A stretch of 6,621 nt of DNA from a virus (taxonomy: Duplodnaviria > Heunggongvirae > Uroviricota > Caudoviricetes): IMG/VR virus record IMGVR_UViG_2534681772_000015, one strand, 5' to 3'. How positions within the stretch are numbered: position 1 is the stretch's first letter; the number at the start of each line of letters is the position of its first letter. This document shows, one piece after another, positions 1-6,621 of the stretch. Below the pieces are notes generated by a model that worked only from the letters and a program-made list of their open reading frames with translations, did no database searches and was not told the origin of the DNA. The position numbers and the translations under genes were made by a program.

Positions 1-1158
1 ATGCTCACCGTTAAGCAGATTGAAGCAGCAAAGCCGAAAGAAAAACCATACCGCCTTCTCGATGGTAATGGCCTGTACCTTTATGTCCCTGTATCCGGGA
101 AAAAGGTATGGCAGCTTCGCTACAAGATTGACGGTAAGGAGAAAATCCTGACCGTAGGAAAATATCCGCTAATGACTTTGCAGGAGGCAAGAGATAAAGC
201 ATGGACCGCGAGGAAAGACATCTCGGTTGGCATCGATCCGGTAAAGGCGAAAAAGGCTTCGTCTAACAACAATTCATTTAGTGCGATTTACAAGGAATGG
301 TACGAGCACAAGAAGCAAGTCTGGTCAGTAGGCTATGCAACTGAACTTGCCAAAATGTTTGATGACGACATTTTACCCATCATCGGCGGCCTTGAGATTC
401 AGGATATTGAGCCGATGCAACTGCTGGAAGTAATCCGCAGATTTGAAGATCGCGGTGCAATGGAGCGAGCCAACAAAGCCCGCAGAAGATGCGGCGAGGT
501 TTTCCGTTACGCTATTGTCACTGGTAGGGCTAAATATAACCCGGCACCTGACCTTGCTGACGCCATGAAGGGATACCGCAAGAAGAACTTCCCGTTTCTC
601 CCAGCAGACCAGATCCCTGCATTCAACAAAGCACTGGCAACATTTTCAGGAAGCATCATATCGCTCATTGCGACCAAAGTTTTACGCTACACAGCCCTAA
701 GAACGAAAGAGCTTCGCTCCATGCAATGGAAGAACGTCGATTTTGAAAACAGGATTATCACTATCGACGCCAGTGTGATGAAGGGCCGCAAAATTCATGT
801 GGTTCCTATGTCAGACCAGGTAATTGAACTTCTCACTACGCTAAGCTCAATCACTAAACCAGTATCAGAGTTTGTTTTTGCCGGGCGCAACGATAAGAAG
901 AAGCCAATCTGCGAGAACGCGGTATTGCTTGTGATCAAACAAATTGGCTATGAAGGGCTGGAAAGCGGTCACGGATTCAGGCATGAATTCAGCACGATTA
1001 TGAACGAGCACGAATGGCCTGCTGACGCTATTGAAGTGCAACTGGCACATGCCAACGGCGGATCTGTGCGCGGGATTTACAACCATGCTCAGTATCTCGA
1101 TAAACGCAGAGAAATGATGCAATGGTGGGCGGACTGGCTTGATGAAAAGGTGGAGTGA
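1..1158 (+). CDS. intS: Site-specific tyrosine recombinase / prophage integrase, P4/CP4-57 family, 385 aa, apparently full length
   Basis: ORF begins at window position 1 with the N-terminus MLTVKQIEAAKPKEKPYRLLDGNGLYLYV, typical of P4-type integrase arm-binding domains. The C-terminal catalytic domain carries the tyrosine-recombinase signature: box I region LRTKELR, box II GHGFRHEF (H-x-x-R), and the nucleophile region RGIYNHAQY. Stop TGA at 1156-1158. The symbol is from my recollection that this sequence matches E. coli IntS of the CPS-53/KpLE1 element; not verified by search. Confidence 0.9.
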   Translation: MLTVKQIEAAKPKEKPYRLLDGNGLYLYVPVSGKKVWQLRYKIDGKEKILTVGKYPLMTLQEARDKAWTARKDISVGIDPVKAKKASSNNNSFSAIYKEWYEHKKQVWSVGYATELAKMFDDDILPIIGGLEIQDIEPMQLLEVIRRFEDRGAMERANKARRRCGEVFRYAIVTGRAKYNPAPDLADAMKGYRKKNFPFLPADQIPAFNKALATFSGSIISLIATKVLRYTALRTKELRSMQWKNVDFENRIITIDASVMKGRKIHVVPMSDQVIELLTTLSSITKPVSEFVFAGRNDKKKPICENAVLLVIKQIGYEGLESGHGFRHEFSTIMNEHEWPADAIEVQLAHANGGSVRGIYNHAQYLDKRREMMQWWADWLDEKVE

Positions 1159-1181
1159 TCCGCCTTAACCACTATCGAAGA

Positions 1182-1230
1182 GCACAAAGCCTTGCAATCC
1201 AGTGCAAAGCTTTGTGTGTATGAGTTTTTT
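1182..1230 (+). terminator. Possible intrinsic terminator downstream of the integrase (imperfect long hairpin plus T6 run)
   Basis: Outer arms gcacaaagc (1182-1190) and gctttgtgt (1209-1217) pair, with inner arms ttgca (1192-1196) and tgcaa (1204-1208) around a 7-nt loop. A TTTTTT run at 1225-1230 follows, but it is separated from the stem by 7 nt, so this is not canonical. Confidence 0.3.
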
Positions 1231-1301
1231 CTCACATCACCAGGCAATCATCAAACTCCGTATTCCTGGCGTCATTAATTATGTAAGTGATCACCACGAA
1301 T

Positions 1302-1329
1302 ATAGCCAGTGCAGAATAGCCAGTGCAGA
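1302..1329. repeat. Perfect tandem direct repeat, 2 x 14 bp (ATAGCCAGTGCAGA)
   Basis: Identical 14-mers at 1302-1315 and 1316-1329, read directly from the sequence. Located in the intergenic region between the integrase and the AT-rich cassette. Confidence 0.9.
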
Positions 1330-1561
1330 ACTGTAACCATCATCATCTTCTGGCAGCGCTTCCCTTCTCCCGTTATCCAGATTAACCGGGTGGTGCTGAG
1401 GATGAGTCCGATATCGCTTGATCCTGAATTCCACATCTATAGCAAAGCGGAAGGATGTCTCAATGTCGTGGACACACAGTGTTACAGCCACAAATCTATA
1501 GCCTAAGAAAGGTTTATTTTGTAATTAAAGAAGATTTTAAAAACCAGATTACTCATTCATA

Positions 1562-1590
1562 TAGACACCAATCCCCTACAGTCATAAAAT
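1562..1590 (+). promoter_or_regulatory. Candidate sigma70 promoter for the acyltransferase gene
   Basis: -35-like TAGACA (1562-1567, 5/6 to TTGACA), 17-bp spacer, -10-like TAAAAT (1585-1590, 5/6 to TATAAT). Lies about 45 bp upstream of the ATG at 1633, within AT-rich DNA. Prediction by eye only. Confidence 0.3.
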
Positions 1591-1632
1591 GCCTCTTTTG
1601 AATTGCTTTATCTTCATAACAAGAGGTTATTG

Positions 1633-2652
1633 ATGCTTCGCCACTTAACAGGACTCAGATTTATAGCTGCATTAATGGTTTATTTATGCCATTTAAATAC
1701 AGACTATTTTGGTGTTTTTGTAAAAGAAATGTTTTCCCAGGGATTTATTGGCGTTTCCTTTTTCTTTATTTTATCTGGCTTCATTCTTTCATATTCATAT
1801 GAAGACAAGCTAAAAAATGAAGTAACAAGTAAAAGACAGTTTATTCTTTTAAGATTGGCAAGAATTGTTCCAATGCATCTATTATTAGCCATGCCATTTA
1901 TTTTACTAACCATTCACTTAAAGAACTTTGATTTTTCAAAAACCTTAACAAATATTTTATTAATGCAAAGTTGGATACCAAAGGAGGATTACTACTTCTC
2001 ATTAAATGGTGTATCATGGTCTTTGTCTGATGAGCTGTTTTTTTATTTAATGTTTATTCCGTTGATTTATACATCAATTACAAAGAAAGTAATCACTGCA
2101 ATATCAATTATAACTCTACTATTAACTATATATTTTTTAAAAATTATACAAACAGAAGAACTTAATCACTGGTTATATTATATATTCCCAGTAAGCCGCT
2201 TGGTAGAATTTATTTGCGGTATGATTATTTACGCTTGCTGGAAAAACAGCCGACAGCAGACAGTCGACAGCCTTTTGTTTTTAATTTCACTATTACCTCT
2301 GCTAATAGCTATATATTATAGCAACAACATAAATAATAGTCTACGTTATTCGTTATATTATTTACTCCCCATGGTAATATTCTTTACTTCATGCATCTAT
2401 CTAAGAAATGGAGTCATTCATACTATCCTCAGTTCAAAAACCCTAGAGCTATTAGGGAAATCATCATTTATTTTTTATTTAATTCATCAACCCATTATAT
2501 TATTTTGCTTTAAAATCTTTGGACATAACCCCGGACCACTCTATTTAATAGCGCTCCTTGTTATAATAACCATAGTCTCAATCATACTTTATAAATTAGT
2601 TGAGGAGCCTTTAGAGCTGATGCTAAGAAAACGAATTTTAGCAGTAAAATAA
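1633..2652 (+). CDS. Integral-membrane acyltransferase family 3 protein (Oac/OafA-like O-antigen or polysaccharide O-acetyltransferase), about 339 aa
   Basis: I prefer the ATG at 1633 (preceded by AAGAGG at 1621-1626, 6-nt spacer) over the ORF track's TTG at 1603. The protein carries all three acyltransferase-3 signatures: R-X10-H near the N-terminus (R9...H20 in LRFIAALMVYLCH), FFxISGF-type motif (VSFFFILSGFIL), and VxWSLxxE motif (GVSWSLSDELFFY). It is hydrophobic throughout, consistent with about 10 transmembrane segments and no appended SGNH domain. The gene is about 30% GC in the one 60-nt block I counted, against visibly GC-richer flanks. Stop TAA at 2650-2652. Confidence 0.8.
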   Translation: MLRHLTGLRFIAALMVYLCHLNTDYFGVFVKEMFSQGFIGVSFFFILSGFILSYSYEDKLKNEVTSKRQFILLRLARIVPMHLLLAMPFILLTIHLKNFDFSKTLTNILLMQSWIPKEDYYFSLNGVSWSLSDELFFYLMFIPLIYTSITKKVITAISIITLLLTIYFLKIIQTEELNHWLYYIFPVSRLVEFICGMIIYACWKNSRQQTVDSLLFLISLLPLLIAIYYSNNINNSLRYSLYYLLPMVIFFTSCIYLRNGVIHTILSSKTLELLGKSSFIFYLIHQPIILFCFKIFGHNPGPLYLIALLVIITIVSIILYKLVEEPLELMLRKRILAVK

Positions 2653-2654
2653 AT

Positions 2655-2678
2655 AAAACCGCGCTATTGCGCGGTTTT
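2655..2678. terminator. Bidirectional rho-independent terminator between convergent genes
   Basis: Perfect 10-bp stem AAAACCGCGC (2655-2664) / GCGCGGTTTT (2669-2678) with loop TATT. T-runs flank on both strands, and it sits 3 nt after the acyltransferase stop. The stop codon of the minus-strand small ORF (2664-2666) lies inside the hairpin. Confidence 0.7.
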
Positions 2679-2843
2679 ATCTTCAGGCTTGATGAATTTT
2701 TTACCGTCATATGACCAGCCAATACCAACATCTCCAACACATTTAACTATATCCGCTTTTTCTGACTTAAACTCTGACTTACCATCCCATACAACAAGAT
2801 TTGTAACGACACCATTTTGTACGACTGCATAAATATCGCTCAT
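2664..2843 (-). CDS. Small phage protein of unknown function (59 aa from ATG; 64 aa if the GTG at 2858 is used), translationally coupled to the tail fiber gene
   Basis: ATG at 2841-2843 overlaps the tail-fiber stop TAA (2843-2845) as TAATG. A GGGAG Shine-Dalgarno lies about 8 nt upstream on the minus strand. Sequence MSDIYAVVQNGVVTNLVVWDG...IGWSYDGKKF resembles short beta-rich proteins I recall downstream of phage tail fiber genes. The last four codons (KTAQ) are encoded by the terminator stem. Confidence 0.5.
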   Translation of the reverse strand: MSDIYAVVQNGVVTNLVVWDGKSEFKSEKADIVKCVGDVGIGWSYDGKKFIKPEDKTAQ

Positions 2844-4039
2844 TACTGATACTCCCACACAAGAATATATCCCTGATTTCCATTATTTCCTGTCGCTGGG
2901 CCTGATGACGCCTTATTGTATTTACCTGTCCCGCCAATACCGTATGTCCCAAGCATAGTAGGGGTTATACTTTCAACGCCAATCGCCTGATCATCACCAA
3001 GTCCAATTGCCCCACATAAATTTGATCGTGAAACTGAATGGAACAGAATCCCTTGCCCTGTAGGAATTGGTGCTTCTGTTGCACTTCCCCCTGAAAATGG
3101 AGGTACCTGCTGAACTTGAGTTGATCCCCTTCCTCCCGGACATACAAGCAAATCACCAAAGCTTGTATTCCCGCCGTTACCTCCAGAGCCTCCTGGTCCT
3201 GTTCCTGCTACACCACCGCTTCCAATAGTTACTTGCACGGATTCAGGTATAGACTGATAAAAAAATGCTTTAGCATATGCCCCGTTGGAACCGGCAGCAC
3301 TTACACCACAGTTACCAGATGCAGTTGCCGACAAATTACCACTGGCACCACCTCCGCCAACGGCTTCCACTATAATTTTCGTTACACCAGGTGATTTGAT
3401 ATAAGTCCCAGATGATCCAAATGCCTGAACCCCCAAAAGCCTTCCTGTTCCATCCCCAAGTGTTAAATATTTTAGAGTTTCCGATACGTTTTTTTTACTT
3501 AAAATTTCCCTGCCATTTTGAGTCAGCGCTGTCATATCCATTGTTCCAGCACCTGTAAAAAATGCCAGCCCATCCGGAAATCCAGAAAGAGATGATAACG
3601 CAGTTAAGTTCTGGTTTTTACCCTGTTTTTCATCAATGCCTAAATATGATATAAGATTTAACCATCCATCACTTACTGAGTTTGGATTATTAGTATTTCC
3701 ATCGACAGTGTTCAAATACAAAGCGCTGCCATCATCTGAAACTATAAGAGCGTATTTTGGATAACCATTAATACCGATAGCAAAATCACTATCAAAAAAG
3801 TTTATTGCTCCTGCACTAAACCATCTACATAGAGAAGATAGTTCAAACAGAATTTGATTCATATCTTGACCTTTTGGTGGTAATCCCCCTGCAGATTTAA
3901 GGATCATGGTTATTGGAGGAAATCCTAAGTCATATGATGCTGTATTATCACCTGACGGAGTTGTTGGTAAAATCTCCCCCCTCTGTCCATTGATTCCAAA
4001 TGGTTTAGTTTGTTTTTTGGGCGCGTCTGAACGATTCAT
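2843..4039 (-). CDS. Phage tail fiber protein (398 aa) with a conserved P2-gpH-like internal motif and a glycine-rich C-terminal domain (putative receptor-binding)
   Basis: Residues about 144-196 (LTALSSLSGFPDGLAFFTGAGTMDMTALTQNGREILSKKNVSETLKYLTLG) resemble, from memory, the conserved segment of P2 gpH-type tail fibers (...LTALAGL...FPYFTGNDVASLATLTKVGRDILAK...IEYLGL). The C-terminal about 170 aa is Gly/Ser/Thr/Asn-rich (VGGGGASGN, GSGGVAGTGPGGSGGNGGN). Position is immediately after the gpI-like gene (TAA at 4042-4044, ATG at 4037-4039). Confidence 0.75.
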   Translation of the reverse strand: MNRSDAPKKQTKPFGINGQRGEILPTTPSGDNTASYDLGFPPITMILKSAGGLPPKGQDMNQILFELSSLCRWFSAGAINFFDSDFAIGINGYPKYALIVSDDGSALYLNTVDGNTNNPNSVSDGWLNLISYLGIDEKQGKNQNLTALSSLSGFPDGLAFFTGAGTMDMTALTQNGREILSKKNVSETLKYLTLGDGTGRLLGVQAFGSSGTYIKSPGVTKIIVEAVGGGGASGNLSATASGNCGVSAAGSNGAYAKAFFYQSIPESVQVTIGSGGVAGTGPGGSGGNGGNTSFGDLLVCPGGRGSTQVQQVPPFSGGSATEAPIPTGQGILFHSVSRSNLCGAIGLGDDQAIGVESITPTMLGTYGIGGTGKYNKASSGPATGNNGNQGYILVWEYQ

Positions 4040-4041
4040 AT

Positions 4042-4680
4042 TTAATCTCTGTAAAATGTACCATCATTAAACGGATAAGCATCTGATGAAAATCCAAAGT
4101 AAGGACTTACCACTTGGTTTATTCCTACGAGTACACCACTCGGAACAGGTGTTACATCATAATTCGTAAGAATAGATTCTTCGTATGGTGCAAGTTCAAA
4201 CTCGAATGTTATTCCTACTGTCATATCACGATAATTTACACAGTATACTCTTCCTCTTTGATAAAACAATATCTTTAGAAACCGGTTGATTTCTGGAATT
4301 GTAGCAATACTAATGTTTGTGAACGCTTTGCAAAATATAAGAGTTCTGTAAGCATCATCACTCAGCCTAACATTCGTTGTTTCCTGTATCCCACCAAAAA
4401 ATGGATCTCCATTGAAAGGTGTTGGGTAATTTATGTCCGCACTATTAGCCTCACTGAATCCGAAAGAACTGGTTTCTATTGGAGCATTAATATAACGACT
4501 TATTCCTACTATTTTACCCCACATATCTAGCCCGAATGTTTCACATGTGGTCAAATCCCATACTTTTGCAATAAACTCATCAGTGAAATCATCAAGGTTA
4601 ACTGCCTGATCAAAAGTATCAATGATAGATAGCAATTTTTTGCTTGCTGAGTATTGGGTAAGAATTGTGTCTTCCCACAT
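4042..4680 (-). CDS. Putative baseplate / tail protein (gpI-position protein, 212 aa)
   Basis: Call rests mainly on synteny: it lies between the baseplate-J-like gene and the tail fiber gene, as P2 gpI and Mu gp48 do. Size is compatible. A GAGAGGG Shine-Dalgarno lies just upstream of the ATG at 4678-4680. I do not see the LLPWLAW-type motif I remember from P2 gpI, so the family assignment is tentative. Confidence 0.5.
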   Translation of the reverse strand: MWEDTILTQYSASKKLLSIIDTFDQAVNLDDFTDEFIAKVWDLTTCETFGLDMWGKIVGISRYINAPIETSSFGFSEANSADINYPTPFNGDPFFGGIQETTNVRLSDDAYRTLIFCKAFTNISIATIPEINRFLKILFYQRGRVYCVNYRDMTVGITFEFELAPYEESILTNYDVTPVPSGVLVGINQVVSPYFGFSSDAYPFNDGTFYRD

Positions 4681-4691
4681 ACCGCCCTCTC

Positions 4692-5921
4692 TTACGATAA
4701 AGTAACAGTTATATCTGATTCCTGAATGGTTGGAACTTGATCTATACCCATAGTAACAGCCGGACCGTATAGAGAACCATCCAGAGACACTTCAAGAGAC
4801 AAAATACCTACTGTATCAGGAGATATTGAAATAACAGGGGCATAGTATTTACCAGCATTTATCGTCGAACCAATTCGTGCCTTTCCAATACCCTCATACC
4901 CTCCATTGAACACTGTGGATATTATTCCCTTTACTTGCTTAGATATGTCACTTGGAGGATTTAGAGATGAATCAATATTAACCTTAAAGTAAACTCGCGT
5001 CGGCGATGCTTTTTGCCATTGCATCACATATGATGGATATGGAGGCATGTAATTAACGTTGTCGTAAACAGTGAACGTTGTATCACCATTCATATTGGCA
5101 CCAGGATTATAAGTATTGAATATTGACTCAGCAACATCCTCATCAGCACCACCATAAACACAAATATAAACAGAATGCGCCAGAATAGGGAAATTCGTTG
5201 TTCCTTTATTTACTGTTTCTGCAGTTCTGTTTGACCATACGTAAGCATCAAGCACACCATCAGTCGCAAGTAACGCGGCTAATGTAGATGCGTCCTGATT
5301 TCGACTGTTTCTGGCAACTGATTGTCTCCGGCGAGTTTCAAAGGCGATCCGTGATTCAACATCAACACCAACGACTCCAGGGCTAGTATTATTTACAGCA
5401 TCCCACCCGGAAACGGCTCGATAAATCTGGTTCAGTGAACCTGCGGCACACGGAATCGGCCCGGTTGTTGTGTTGACAAACTGCACATCAACAGAGCCTG
5501 ATGAGGGTATTACAGCATTATCAATTGACTGATATATATACCCGCTCGTATCCACAGCGGTACTCCCTGCTGGTATTGTTGTTCCAACCTGACCAATGCA
5601 TGTTGCTGTAACAACTGTCCCCTGAGCAGCGATCCGTTCCATAAAGTAAATCCGACCAATCCCGTCCTGGAATCTACCGGTTGAGAAGTCAGGGTTTATT
5701 TGATTAAACAAACAAAGAAGCTTGTCGTATACCTGAGCAATGATTTCAGTGTCAGACTGTGCGATCTGACCTTGCGGTGAACTCAGTGACTGACTTGCGC
5801 CACCGCCAAGAACCGTTGACATGTCTGTAAGTCTTCCCGCCAGCACATCCGCTATGTCGGGAACTGAAAGACCGTTTTCAGTGATGGTTACATCAGGAAC
5901 AGCCGTATTTAATATCGTCAT
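4692..5921 (-). CDS. Baseplate J-like protein (P2 gpJ / Mu gp47 / T4 gp6 family), 409 aa
   Basis: Position after a small gpW-like gene with a 4-nt ATGA start/stop overlap (5918-5921). Internal segment ...ESRIAFETRRRQ...TLAALLATDGVLDAYVWSN...VYICVYGG fits the baseplate-J pattern as I remember it. Size is appropriate for the family. Confidence 0.7.
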   Translation of the reverse strand: MTILNTAVPDVTITENGLSVPDIADVLAGRLTDMSTVLGGGASQSLSSPQGQIAQSDTEIIAQVYDKLLCLFNQINPDFSTGRFQDGIGRIYFMERIAAQGTVVTATCIGQVGTTIPAGSTAVDTSGYIYQSIDNAVIPSSGSVDVQFVNTTTGPIPCAAGSLNQIYRAVSGWDAVNNTSPGVVGVDVESRIAFETRRRQSVARNSRNQDASTLAALLATDGVLDAYVWSNRTAETVNKGTTNFPILAHSVYICVYGGADEDVAESIFNTYNPGANMNGDTTFTVYDNVNYMPPYPSYVMQWQKASPTRVYFKVNIDSSLNPPSDISKQVKGIISTVFNGGYEGIGKARIGSTINAGKYYAPVISISPDTVGILSLEVSLDGSLYGPAVTMGIDQVPTIQESDITVTLS

Positions 5922-6262
5922 AAGGTGGCCTGTGCAATATTACCATTGATATCTGTAACGCGGATTGTGCCGCGAGTTGTAAGTGTATTCTTGTCAAAGA
6001 AAACTGATGCCAGAGCATCCTCAACGACGGGTAATTTGAGTGCTTCAGCCTGCATTTTCTGAGCAATAAAACCAGGAGATGGTCGCCTGCCAAGAACTTC
6101 TGCCTCCCATGGAATCCCAAGCGTATTGTCGTAATAACACTCTCCAGAAAACACCAGGCACGCACTGGCGACATCCTGAGCAACAGAATATGATTCTTCT
6201 GCGATCGCCAGATTGCCATTTCCGTCAAGCGTCAAGTCCCACGTAGAAGTGTCCAGTTGCAT
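5918..6262 (-). CDS. Small baseplate wedge protein, gpW/gp25-like (114 aa); translation start uncertain
   Basis: About 115 aa ORF immediately upstream of and overlapping the baseplate-J-like gene, the canonical W-J arrangement. Its ATG (6260-6262) is only 5 bp from the IS end at 6268 and an in-frame stop lies at 6293-6295 inside the IS, so the native upstream region and ribosome-binding site have been replaced. Confidence 0.5.
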   Translation of the reverse strand: MQLDTSTWDLTLDGNGNLAIAEESYSVAQDVASACLVFSGECYYDNTLGIPWEAEVLGRRPSPGFIAQKMQAEALKLPVVEDALASVFFDKNTLTTRGTIRVTDINGNIAQATL

Positions 6263-6267
6263 AGTTC

Positions 6268-6621
6268 TGAACCGCCCCGGGAATCCTGGAGACTAAACTC
6301 CCTGAGAAAGAGGTAAACAGGATGACTAAAAATACTCGTTTTTCCCCCGAAGTCCGTCAGAGGGCGATTCGTATGGTTCTGGAAAGTCAGGGCGAATATG
6401 ACTCACAGTGGGCGGCAATTTGTTCCATTGCCCCAAAGATTGACTGTACACCGGAGACTCTGCGTGTCTGGGTACGCCAGCATGAGCGGGATACCGGAGG
6501 CGGTGATGGCGGGCTCACCACCGCTGAACGTCAGCGTCTGAAAGAGCTGGAACGTGAAAATCGTGAACTGCGCCGCAGTAACGATATCCTTCGCCAGGCT
6601 TCCGCTTATTTTGCGAAGGCG
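6268..6621 (+). mobile_element. IS3-family insertion sequence, left end (IS629/IS1203-like), running off the window
   Basis: The terminus begins with TG (TGAACCGCCCCGGGAATCCTGGAGACTAAACTCCC...) as IS3-family left inverted repeats do, followed by an AAGAGG ribosome-binding site and orfA. The IS629-like assignment is from memory of the OrfA sequence. Confidence 0.85.
6322..6621 (+). CDS. IS3-family transposase OrfA (partial; 3' end beyond window)
   Basis: Translation [100 protein letters not shown] shows the helix-turn-helix plus leucine-zipper organisation of IS3-family OrfA proteins. No stop codon before the window end. Confidence 0.9.

What the first reader, a model, noticed from the sequence alone, without database searches (positions are those of the whole stretch)
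2641..2860. Cassette junction: the terminator hairpin encodes the C-terminus of the small tail-fiber-adjacent ORF, which may be truncated
The minus-strand small ORF stops (TAG, 2664-2666) inside the perfect hairpin at 2655-2678, and its last four codons are made of stem sequence. Tail fiber genes are normally followed by a tail fiber assembly/chaperone gene of about 175-200 aa, but here only a 59-64 aa ORF exists before the AT-rich cassette. One explanation is that acquisition of the acyltransferase cassette, with its terminator, truncated or replaced the original chaperone gene. The alternative is that this is a native short protein of a known small-ORF family.
Basis: inference. Interest (0 to 1): 0.5.

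Follow-up and report, generated by a model that had tools for sequence, protein, structure and literature searches.

The report
Mini tail-fibre chaperone clipped by gene cassette
The small gene after the prophage tail-fibre gene is an intact member of a widespread family of about 60-residue proteins that resemble the fibre-binding half of tail-fibre chaperones, and the acyltransferase cassette replaced only its dispensable last 15 codons with 6 codons made of terminator hairpin, which is ordinary phage mosaicism.

Summary
A perfect hairpin (12-bp stem, 2653-2664/2669-2680) lies between the convergent acyltransferase gene (stop 2650-2652) and a 59-aa minus-strand ORF (2664-2843). The ORF's last codons and its TAG stop are hairpin sequence.

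The junction idea is right, but large truncation is wrong. Relatives without the cassette align with the window only from base 2685, directly after codon 53. They carry a 68-aa form with a different 15-residue tail, and two have cores identical at the nucleotide level. The cassette slot is 1229-2684, at 26-33% GC.

No 175-200-aa chaperone was lost. The conserved core, residues 1-53, is complete. It matches phrog_14370 end to end. Of 150 distant representatives, 85 are 50-80 aa long.

The ORF is most likely a stand-alone fibre-binding chaperone module. That role is inferred, not shown.

The parts
1183..1216 (.). Hairpin just after the intS stop (CACAAAGCCTTGCA / TGCAAAGCTTTGTG). It forms the conserved left flank of the cassette slot. 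Homology with relatives that carry other cassettes ends at 1228.
   Evidence: I1. L002 aligns to window 1-1228, L024 aligns to 1098-1228, and L025 starts at 1181.
1229..2684 (.). Variable cassette ('moron') slot. In this window it holds the remnant of an S24 peptidase gene and the AT-rich acyltransferase gene with its terminator.
   Evidence: L002 aligns at 1-1228 and from 2685 onward. (26-33% GC for 1500-2650). (a GDSL esterase occupies the same slot in WS4437A-1).
1232..1440 (-). Frameshifted remnant of an S24 (HumD/UmuD-like) peptidase gene. It travels with the acyltransferase cassette.
   Evidence: RefSeq annotation of the identical TW10590 stretch. The same remnant is present in CP52E and in other genomes.
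1633..2652 (+). Acyl_transf_3 membrane acyltransferase, probably an O-antigen acetylase (moron gene). The longest ORF starts at a TTG at 1603.
   Evidence: Pfam PF01757, E 2.2e-30. phrog_3333 O-acetyltransferase, E 7.5e-51. RefSeq CDS. Promoter-like site at 1562-1590.
2653..2680 (.). Perfect 12-bp stem / 4-nt loop hairpin flanked by an A-tract and a T-tract. It is a probable bidirectional intrinsic terminator belonging to the cassette side of the junction.
   Evidence: It is identical in 11 viral contigs. The same 24-mer serves as an intergenic A-tract/T-tract hairpin in 10 unrelated bacterial genomes.
2664..2684 (-). Swapped tail of the small ORF: codons E54-D-K-T-A-Q59 plus the TAG stop, encoded by cassette and hairpin DNA.
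   Evidence: Junction at 2684|2685.
2685..2843 (-). Conserved core (codons 1-53) of the small ORF, a stand-alone homologue of the N-terminal fibre-binding domain of Tfa-type chaperones. The ATG at 2843-2841 overlaps the fibre stop (TAATG). An SD-like GGGAG lies 8 nt upstream.
   Evidence: 0 nt differences from the L014/L023 cores, and dN/dS 0.24 against L018.
2843..4039 (-). Tail fibre (398 aa) with a C-terminal glycine-rich receptor-binding domain. The part from 2843 to about 3633 (residues ~136-398) moves between phage backbones together with the small ORF.
   Evidence: Pfam Gly_rich_2, 31.5 bits. PHROG tail-fibre families. Profile hit to Pam3 fibre gp24, E 2.3e-8. Breakpoint at 3633.

Best explanation
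The 59-aa ORF (2664-2843, minus strand) is an intact late gene, translationally coupled to the tail-fibre gene.

It encodes a stand-alone version of the ~55-residue beta-sandwich module that forms the fibre-binding N-terminal domain of Tfa-type tail-fibre chaperones (cyanophage Pam3 gp25, phage Mu U). By analogy it binds the side of the TNF-like/glycine-rich tip of the fibre encoded just upstream and assists or stabilises its folding. It lacks the helical trimerising C-terminal (Caudo_TAP) domain.

Between the 3' end of intS and the 3' end of this ORF lies a cassette slot (1229-2684). When the AT-rich acyltransferase cassette, carrying its own bidirectional intrinsic terminator (2653-2680), was joined there, the right-hand joint fell after codon 53 rather than after the stop codon. 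As a result the ancestral, non-conserved 15-residue tail was replaced by six residues (EDKTAQ) and a TAG read out of the terminator stem-loop.

The new joint then spread by recombination as a module of fibre tip, small ORF and cassette.

Shown here: the junction position, the tail swap, the completeness of the conserved core, the family membership, and the homology to Tfa N-terminal domains.

Inferred: chaperone or fibre-binding activity, terminator activity, and that the 6-residue tail is functionally tolerated.
For: Junction:
- 12 of 5426 complete E. coli genomes carry the ORF. Seven have the same cassette joint. The other five align only from query position 200, which is window 2685.
- blastn of the window against L002, L014, L023, L024 and L018 likewise starts at 2685/2686.

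Tail swap:
- The proteins end in ...FIKPEDKTAQ (59 aa) or in ...FIKPSLKQDDVILTEWRAS...FIKPSLKPDVVTPQDELVS or ...FIKPASKPDAVIPPGEQAS (68 aa).
- The 68-aa tails are homologous at the DNA level even in the 63%-identical L018, so that form is ancestral.
- The window's 159-nt core has 0 differences from the 68-aa genes of L014 and L023.

Intact family member:
- phrog_14370, E 5.4e-27, profile positions 2-63 of 63.
- 262 representatives at E<=1e-3, always matching at their N-terminus. Of the best 150, 85 are 50-80 aa and 32 are 116-145 aa.
- Conservation stops at the FxxP motif (P53), and the tails after it are variable, 0-20 aa long.
- dN/dS against L018 is 0.24.

Chaperone link:
- In the 132-aa L019 protein, residues 1-53 are 55% identical to the small ORF and residues 56-131 match Caudo_TAP PF02413 (E 6.8e-21).
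- ~130-aa relatives carry PF02413, and the Cronobacter ones (129 aa) are named tail fiber assembly protein.
- AF2 model: pLDDT 85.8, all-beta.

Partner:
- A fibre C-domain profile hits Pam3 fibre gp24 residues 75-273 of 280 at E 2.3e-8.
- In Pam3, gp25 residues 1-55 bind the TNF-like/glycine-rich junction of gp24 (PMC9608196).

Synteny:
- A glycine-rich fibre gene lies directly upstream of the homologue in E. coli, L018, L019, L020, L028, L030 (Labrys), L053 (Cronobacter), L054 (Paraburkholderia) and L056 (Kluyvera).
Against: - No experiment shows binding or chaperone activity for any stand-alone member.
- In published Tfa models the conserved C-terminal helical domain drives trimerisation and assembly (PMC9608196, citing North et al. 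2019). That domain is absent here, so a lone N-domain may act differently.
- The window protein does not reach any Pfam or NCBIfam threshold.
- The profile of the stand-alone family finds no solved structure by sequence, so the link to gp25 rests on a predicted structure of a 58-residue domain.
- Within the 59-aa lineage, all 4 segregating sites are non-synonymous. One is D20G at a family-invariant Asp. This is compatible with relaxed selection in decaying prophages.
- One family member (Saccharimonadales, L055) lies in a non-phage context.
- The HMM hit to gp24 carries high compositional bias because the domain is glycine-rich.
Confidence: 0.75

Rival explanations
1. One reading: a conventional 175-200-aa tail-fibre assembly gene stood here, and cassette acquisition cut it down to a 59-aa N-terminal stump.
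For: The small ORF is homologous to the N-terminal module of longer Caudo_TAP proteins. The cassette joint does lie inside its 3' end.
Against: - Relatives without this cassette are 68 aa, not 130-200 aa. Their cores are identical or nearly identical at the nucleotide level.
- The 68-aa form is conserved down to 63% identity (L018).
- Stand-alone members of 50-80 aa are the majority of the family across many taxa.
- The net loss here is 9 residues, all outside the conserved core.
Confidence: 0.03
2. The ORF is wholly native. Its C-terminus and the hairpin are the original gene end, and nothing was altered by the cassette.
For: The 59-aa form recurs unchanged in 7 complete E. coli genomes and 11 viral contigs. 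Many natural family members are this short.
Against: - The 59-aa ending occurs only with this acyltransferase cassette.
- Every relative lacking the cassette diverges exactly at 2685 and carries the 15-residue tail.
- That tail is shared with a distant homologue (L018).
- The hairpin is contiguous with the low-GC cassette.
Confidence: 0.04
3. The small ORF is now a functionless relic. The prophage is defective, and the tail swap, or prophage decay in general, has released the gene from selection.
For: - There are 4 non-synonymous and 0 synonymous segregating sites in the 59-aa lineage, including D20G at an invariant residue.
- IS elements interrupt related prophages and abut the window's baseplate genes.
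- The fibre gene is split in L014.
Against: - In the window the core, the fibre, the DUF2612 gene and the baseplate J gene are all intact ORFs.
- The start/stop overlap and the SD-like sequence are preserved.
- The counts are too small to be significant.
- The swapped residues lie beyond the conserved fold, and the model's last 8 residues have pLDDT of about 70.
Confidence: 0.13
4. The hairpin is not a terminator but a recombination or mobility signal that targeted the cassette to this site.
For: Both slot boundaries lie within about 5-12 nt of a hairpin: 1183-1216 against a boundary at 1228, and 2653-2680 against a boundary at 2684.
Against: - The hairpin has the canonical intrinsic-terminator form: a GC-rich stem, an A-tract on one side and a T-tract on the other.
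- The identical 24-mer occurs as an intergenic hairpin in 10 unrelated genomes, with no acyltransferase or small-ORF homologue nearby.
- Other cassettes in the same slot bring different hairpins.
- No recombinase is associated with the cassette.
Confidence: 0.05

Closest known systems
[quoted passage not shown]
   Same: - The domain size is the same, about 55 residues.
- The gene lies directly after a fibre with a glycine-rich tip, and that fibre matches gp24 by profile.
   Different: - The window protein stops where gp25's linker begins. It lacks the 100-residue helical trimerisation domain.
- No similarity is detectable by sequence search.
- The host is an enterobacterial prophage, not a cyanophage.
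Caudo_TAP (PF02413) tail-fibre assembly proteins: lambda Tfa, Mu U/U', P2 G, and the ~130-aa short forms
   Same: - The N-terminal module is shared. The ~130-aa Cronobacter and metagenomic Tfa proteins are 47-55% identical to the small ORF over residues 1-53.
- The gene position, after the fibre gene, is the same.
- Relatives occupy the 'U' position in segments next to an invertase that resemble the Mu G segment (L018, L056).
   Different: - The Pfam-defining conserved C-terminal domain is absent.
- The window protein gives no PF02413 hit.
phrog_14370 (63-residue phage proteins of unknown function)
   Same: End-to-end profile match, E 5.4e-27.
   Different: The last six residues are of foreign (terminator) origin. 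The PHROG family has no assigned function.
Serotype-converting morons between int and the tail genes of temperate enterobacterial phages (Sf6 oac, P22/SfX gtr, CPS-53 yfdGHI at argW)
   Same: An Acyl_transf_3 gene of low GC content, with its own promoter-like site and terminator, sits between an IntS-type integrase and the tail-fibre operon at tRNA-Arg. The comparison with Sf6 oac, gtr and CPS-53 rests on general knowledge, not on a test made here.
   Different: - It is only distantly related to known phage O-acetyltransferases. The best match in the phage collection is 35% identical (TL-2011b).
- The right-hand joint intrudes into the neighbouring late gene.

Membership tests
phrog_14370 small phage protein family | Full-length match to the family profile | tested here: met
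   E 5.4e-27. Protein residues 1-58 match profile positions 2-63 of 63.
Caudo_TAP (PF02413) tail-fibre assembly proteins | Match to the Pfam model and presence of the conserved C-terminal helical domain (...LQ.A.DLG.AT..E...L..W..YR..L..VD...AP.I.WP) | tested here: not met
   The window protein gives no PF02413 hit even at E<=0.1. The protein ends 6 residues after the N-domain. Fused relatives do hit PF02413 over residues 56-131.
Caudo_TAP (PF02413) tail-fibre assembly proteins | N-terminal fibre-specific beta-sandwich domain | tested here: met
   - 47-55% sequence identity to the N-termini of PF02413 proteins.
Caudo_TAP (PF02413) tail-fibre assembly proteins | Gene immediately downstream of its cognate fibre gene | tested here: met
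   TAATG stop/start overlap at 2841-2845. The same synteny is seen in 9 distinct lineages.
Caudo_TAP (PF02413) tail-fibre assembly proteins | Required for fibre folding or trimerisation; forms a complex with the fibre tip | not testable with these tools
   Needs co-expression and pulldown, or a multimer structure prediction.
Rho-independent (intrinsic) terminator, bidirectional | GC-rich stem-loop followed by a U-tract on the transcribed strand | tested here: met
   - Minus strand: stem followed by TTTTATTTATTTTAC, reported by the scan.
- Plus strand: the stem ends in TTTT and is then followed by ATCTTC, a weaker tract that the scan did not report.
- Fold z = -3.75.
Rho-independent (intrinsic) terminator, bidirectional | Transcripts actually end there | not testable with these tools
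   Needs 3'-end mapping.
Pam3 gp24-like / Gly_rich_2 (PF21722) tail-fibre tip | Glycine-rich C-terminal domain matching the family model | tested here: met
   - PF21722 at 31.5 bits against a cut-off of 24.3, residues 212-389.
- A profile of 7 fibre tips hits gp24 residues 75-273 at E 2.3e-8, with high compositional bias.
Acyl_transf_3 O-antigen acyltransferase moron | PF01757 domain across the whole protein; low GC; own promoter and terminator | tested here: met
   - PF01757, E 2.2e-30, residues 15-330.
- phrog_3333.
- GC of 26-33%.
- Promoter-like site at 1562-1590 and a hairpin.
- Substrate and activity were not tested.

The most novel reading that the evidence does not exclude
Stand-alone ~55-70-residue 'mini-Tfa' proteins may be a widespread, undescribed class of tail-fibre chaperone or tip-binding factor. 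They would be specific for glycine-rich (Pam3 gp24-like) fibre tips.

They would work without the conserved helical C-terminal domain that current models treat as the part of Tfa proteins that drives assembly.

In enterobacterial prophages they would travel as one exchangeable unit with the receptor-binding tip and an O-antigen-modifying gene.
Probability: 0.4. Interest if true: 0.5.

Novelty: new variant of a known kind. Interest (0 to 1): 0.35.

Why it matters

The more useful by-product is a function for an unannotated small-ORF family (phrog_14370 and hundreds of relatives labelled 'hypothetical protein'). It is the fibre-binding module of tail-fibre chaperones, and it partners with glycine-rich receptor-binding tips.

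If lone modules are enough for fibre assembly, that qualifies the current two-domain model of Tfa action.

It would also matter for engineering phage host range, where the fibre tip and its cognate helper must be moved together.

Here the helper, the tip and an O-antigen acyltransferase move together between different prophage backbones. This hints at linked inheritance of receptor recognition and receptor modification.

Tried and rejected
- **Species-representative genomes:** a protein-pattern scan for the small ORF found nothing. The representative E. coli genome evidently lacks it.
- **Solved structures by sequence:** a profile of 50 stand-alone members against PDB sequences gave only spurious hits to designed 'Cake' repeat proteins. 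The fibre alone by phmmer gave only a weak N-terminal tailspike hit.
- **NCBIfam:** no family for the small ORF, its relatives or the fibre. Pfam gave only a sub-threshold DUF5874 hit.
- **Origin of the hairpin:** a search for the hairpin 24-mer returned 10 unrelated bacteria with no acyltransferase or small-ORF homologue. These are coincidental generic terminators, not a source. In viral contigs it found only the same 11 loci.
- **Invertase crossover sites in L018:** I looked for gix/hix-like sites to confirm an active invertible segment. There were no inverted repeats of 18 nt or more, and no convincing site. The Mu-G-like layout there may be a remnant.
- **Origin of the acyltransferase:** no phage record carries a close relative of the acyltransferase; the best match is 35% identical.
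- **Literature:** I found no paper on stand-alone forms of this module.
- **Selection within the 59-aa lineage:** the test has too few sites to decide.
Full report
**1. Setting**

The window is an E. coli prophage end. Bases 1100-4100 are 100% identical to strain TW10590, where the element sits next to tRNA-Arg. The gene order is as follows.

| Coordinates | Strand | Feature |
|---|---|---|
| 1-1158 | + | intS |
| 1183-1216 | . | hairpin |
| ~1232-1440 | - | frameshifted S24-peptidase remnant |
| 1633-2652 | + | Acyl_transf_3 gene |
| 2664-2843 | - | the small ORF |
| 2843-4039 | - | 398-aa tail fibre with a Gly_rich_2 C-terminal domain |
| 4042-4680 | - | DUF2612 gene |
| 4692-5921 | - | baseplate J gene |

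In HK620, which has the same type of integrase, the attP core lies upstream of int. In the prophage, the 3' end of int therefore faces the 3' end of the tail operon. The space between them is a slot for accessory genes.

**2.

- The hairpin is a perfect 12-bp stem with a 4-nt loop, at 2653-2664/2669-2680. It folds far better than shuffled sequence, with z = -3.75. It is A-tract/T-tract flanked like a bidirectional intrinsic terminator, although the scan reported it on the minus strand only.
- The acyltransferase stop (2650-2652) abuts the stem.
- The small ORF's TAG stop (2666-2664) lies at the loop/stem boundary. Its last codons (D55 in part, K56, T57, A58, Q59 in part) are stem sequence.
- The cassette is AT-rich, at 26-33% GC.
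- The 59-aa ORF starts at 2843, overlapping the fibre stop as TAATG. A GGGAG lies 8 nt upstream.

**3. Where the junction is**

- Only 12 of 5426 complete E. coli genomes carry the ORF. Seven have the same acyltransferase joint. In the other five, homology starts exactly at window 2685.
- Direct blastn gives the same answer. L002 (WS4437A-1, same backbone) aligns with window 1-1228 and then 2685-6269. L014, L023 and L024 start at 2685, and L018 starts at 2686.
- The slot is therefore 1229-2684. In WS4437A-1 it holds a GDSL esterase instead. In AW1.7 it holds two other small genes.
- Base 2685 is the last base of codon P53. Everything 3' of it in the ORF (EDKTAQ plus the stop) and the hairpin belongs to the cassette side.

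**4. What was lost**

- Proteins from relatives end either in ...FIKPEDKTAQ (59 aa, always with this cassette) or, at 68 aa, in ...FIKPSLKQDDVILTEWRAS...FIKPSLKPDVVTPQDELVS or ...FIKPASKPDAVIPPGEQAS.
- The 68-aa tails are homologous at the DNA level as far as the stop codon, even in the 63%-identical L018. The sequences diverge only after it. The 68-aa form is therefore ancestral.
- Other cassettes joined just after the stop codon. The window's cassette joined 45 nt further in.
- The window's 159-nt core is identical to the cores of the 68-aa genes of L014 and L023, so the event is recent.
- The net change is 15 residues replaced by 6.

**5. The core is complete and the family is naturally short**

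- The protein matches phrog_14370 over the whole profile (E 5.4e-27).
- An exhaustive HMMER search of 1.84 billion cluster representatives found 262 relatives at E<=1e-3. All of them match through their own N-terminus.
- Among the best 150, 85 are 50-80 aa, 23 are 81-115 aa, 32 are 116-145 aa and 6 are 146-200 aa.
- In an alignment of 50 stand-alone members, conservation (Y4, A5, N14, W18, D19, G20, G41, F49, P52 in the numbering, which omits Met1) ends at the FxxP motif. The tails that follow are variable and 0-20 residues long.
- dN/dS for window against L018 is 0.24.

**6. What the module is**

- The 132-aa L019 protein combines a 55%-identical copy of the module (residues 1-53) with a Caudo_TAP domain (PF02413, residues 56-131, E 6.8e-21). 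It sits between a glycine-rich fibre and P2-like sheath and tube genes.
- Many ~130-aa relatives end in the lambda-Tfa-like motif (for example P0020). They carry PF02413, and the Cronobacter ones (129 aa) are named tail fiber assembly protein by NCBI.
- An AlphaFold2 model built on 82 sequences (pLDDT 85.8, pTM 0.65) is all-beta, with a less confident tail.
- Independently, a profile of seven fibre tips found upstream of family members hits the Pam3 fibre gp24 (residues 75-273 of 280) at E 2.3e-8. The compositional bias is high.
- In the solved gp24-gp25 complex, the N-terminal beta-sandwich of gp25 (residues 1-55) binds the side of the TNF-like/glycine-rich region. The C-terminal helical domain trimerises (PMC9608196).
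- Both partners in the window therefore map onto the two chains of one known complex. The exception is that the helical domain is missing.

**7. Synteny**

A glycine-rich fibre gene lies directly upstream of the module in the following lineages.

| Lineage | Locus |
|---|---|
| E. coli | window and relatives |
| Unnamed viral contig | L018 |
| Unnamed viral contig | L019 |
| Unnamed viral contig | L020 |
| Enterobacteriaceae | L027-L029 |
| Labrys | L030 |
| Cronobacter | L053 |
| Paraburkholderia | L054 |
| Kluyvera | L056 |

In L018 and L056 the module occupies the position of Mu gene U, next to a Hin/Gin-type invertase. An alternative chaperone gene lies convergent to it and overlaps it. 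One member, in a Saccharimonadales MAG, is not in a phage context.

**8. The exchanged unit**

- Loci with other baseplate backbones (StfP/YmfQ type at dusA or bioA-ybhB) share window 2685-3633, or 1181-3633, only. This corresponds to fibre residues ~136-398 plus the small ORF, with or without the cassette.
- The tip, its small partner and the acyltransferase therefore move together.
- Convergent Acyl_transf_3 genes also follow the homologue in two other lineages. Their enzymes are unrelated or only distantly related. In L027 the terminator lies in a 60-nt spacer rather than in the ORF.

**9. Verdict**

- The idea that a full-size assembly gene was destroyed is rejected. The small-family alternative is upheld.
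- The extra finding is that the family is the fibre-binding module of Tfa chaperones in stand-alone form.
- The chaperone role is inferred from homology, predicted structure and synteny. It has not been demonstrated.
- There is a weak hint of relaxed selection in the 59-aa lineage: 4 non-synonymous and 0 synonymous sites. Whether the clipped form still works is therefore open.

From general knowledge, not tested here: in E. coli a ribosome terminating inside a terminator stem would be expected to interfere with hairpin formation. On that view the overlap looks like a by-product of the joint rather than a designed feature.

Noticed in passing
window 6262-6621: The sequence upstream of the 114-aa baseplate-region gene (ATG at 6262) is ~97% identical to 'mobile element protein' DNA of Stx-converting phages. 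An IS end seems to abut the gene. In TW10590 a different IS3 element sits inside the DUF2612 gene instead.
   Followed up: partly
window 1183-1228 and 2653-2684: Both ends of the cassette slot lie within 5-12 nt of a terminator-like hairpin. The module that moves to other backbones starts at 1181, right at the base of the left hairpin. This may reflect selection for insulated cassettes, or joints formed near palindromes.
   Followed up: partly
window 1232-1440 (-): A frameshifted S24 (HumD/UmuD-like) peptidase remnant is carried along with the acyltransferase in every E. coli genome that has the cassette. It is also present in a backbone without intS (CP52E).
   Followed up: partly
L002 12848-12905: About six tandem copies of a 10-mer, GGGCTTTGCA, lie upstream of the GDSL esterase gene that occupies the slot in WS4437A-1. 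This could be a length-variable (phase-variation) tract.
   Followed up: no
L027-L029 4254-5240; L052/L053 3392-4345: Convergent Acyl_transf_3 genes follow the small-ORF homologue in two further lineages, one Enterobacteriaceae and one Cronobacter. The L027 enzyme is only about 31% identical to the window's over 108 residues. Acyltransferases have been recruited repeatedly next to glycine-rich fibre tips.
   Followed up: partly
L018 6001-7582; L056 1804-4365: The small ORF and its glycine-rich fibre segment lie beside a Hin/Gin-type invertase. A second fibre-end and chaperone pair is convergent to them and overlaps them, a layout like the Mu G segment. In L018 the 68-aa tail is encoded antisense to the ...NWPVPPEV end of the inverted Caudo_TAP gene. 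No gix-like sites were found.
   Followed up: partly
small ORF codons 20, 24, 27, 41 (window 2721-2786): All four segregating sites among 14 loci of the 59-aa lineage are non-synonymous. One is D20G at the family-invariant Asp. Codon 27 varies as S/P/Q/T across near-identical genes.
   Followed up: partly
L055 3001-3210: A 69-aa family member in a Saccharimonadales MAG lies between a glycosyltransferase gene and secE-nusG. No phage genes were called within 3 kb.
   Followed up: no
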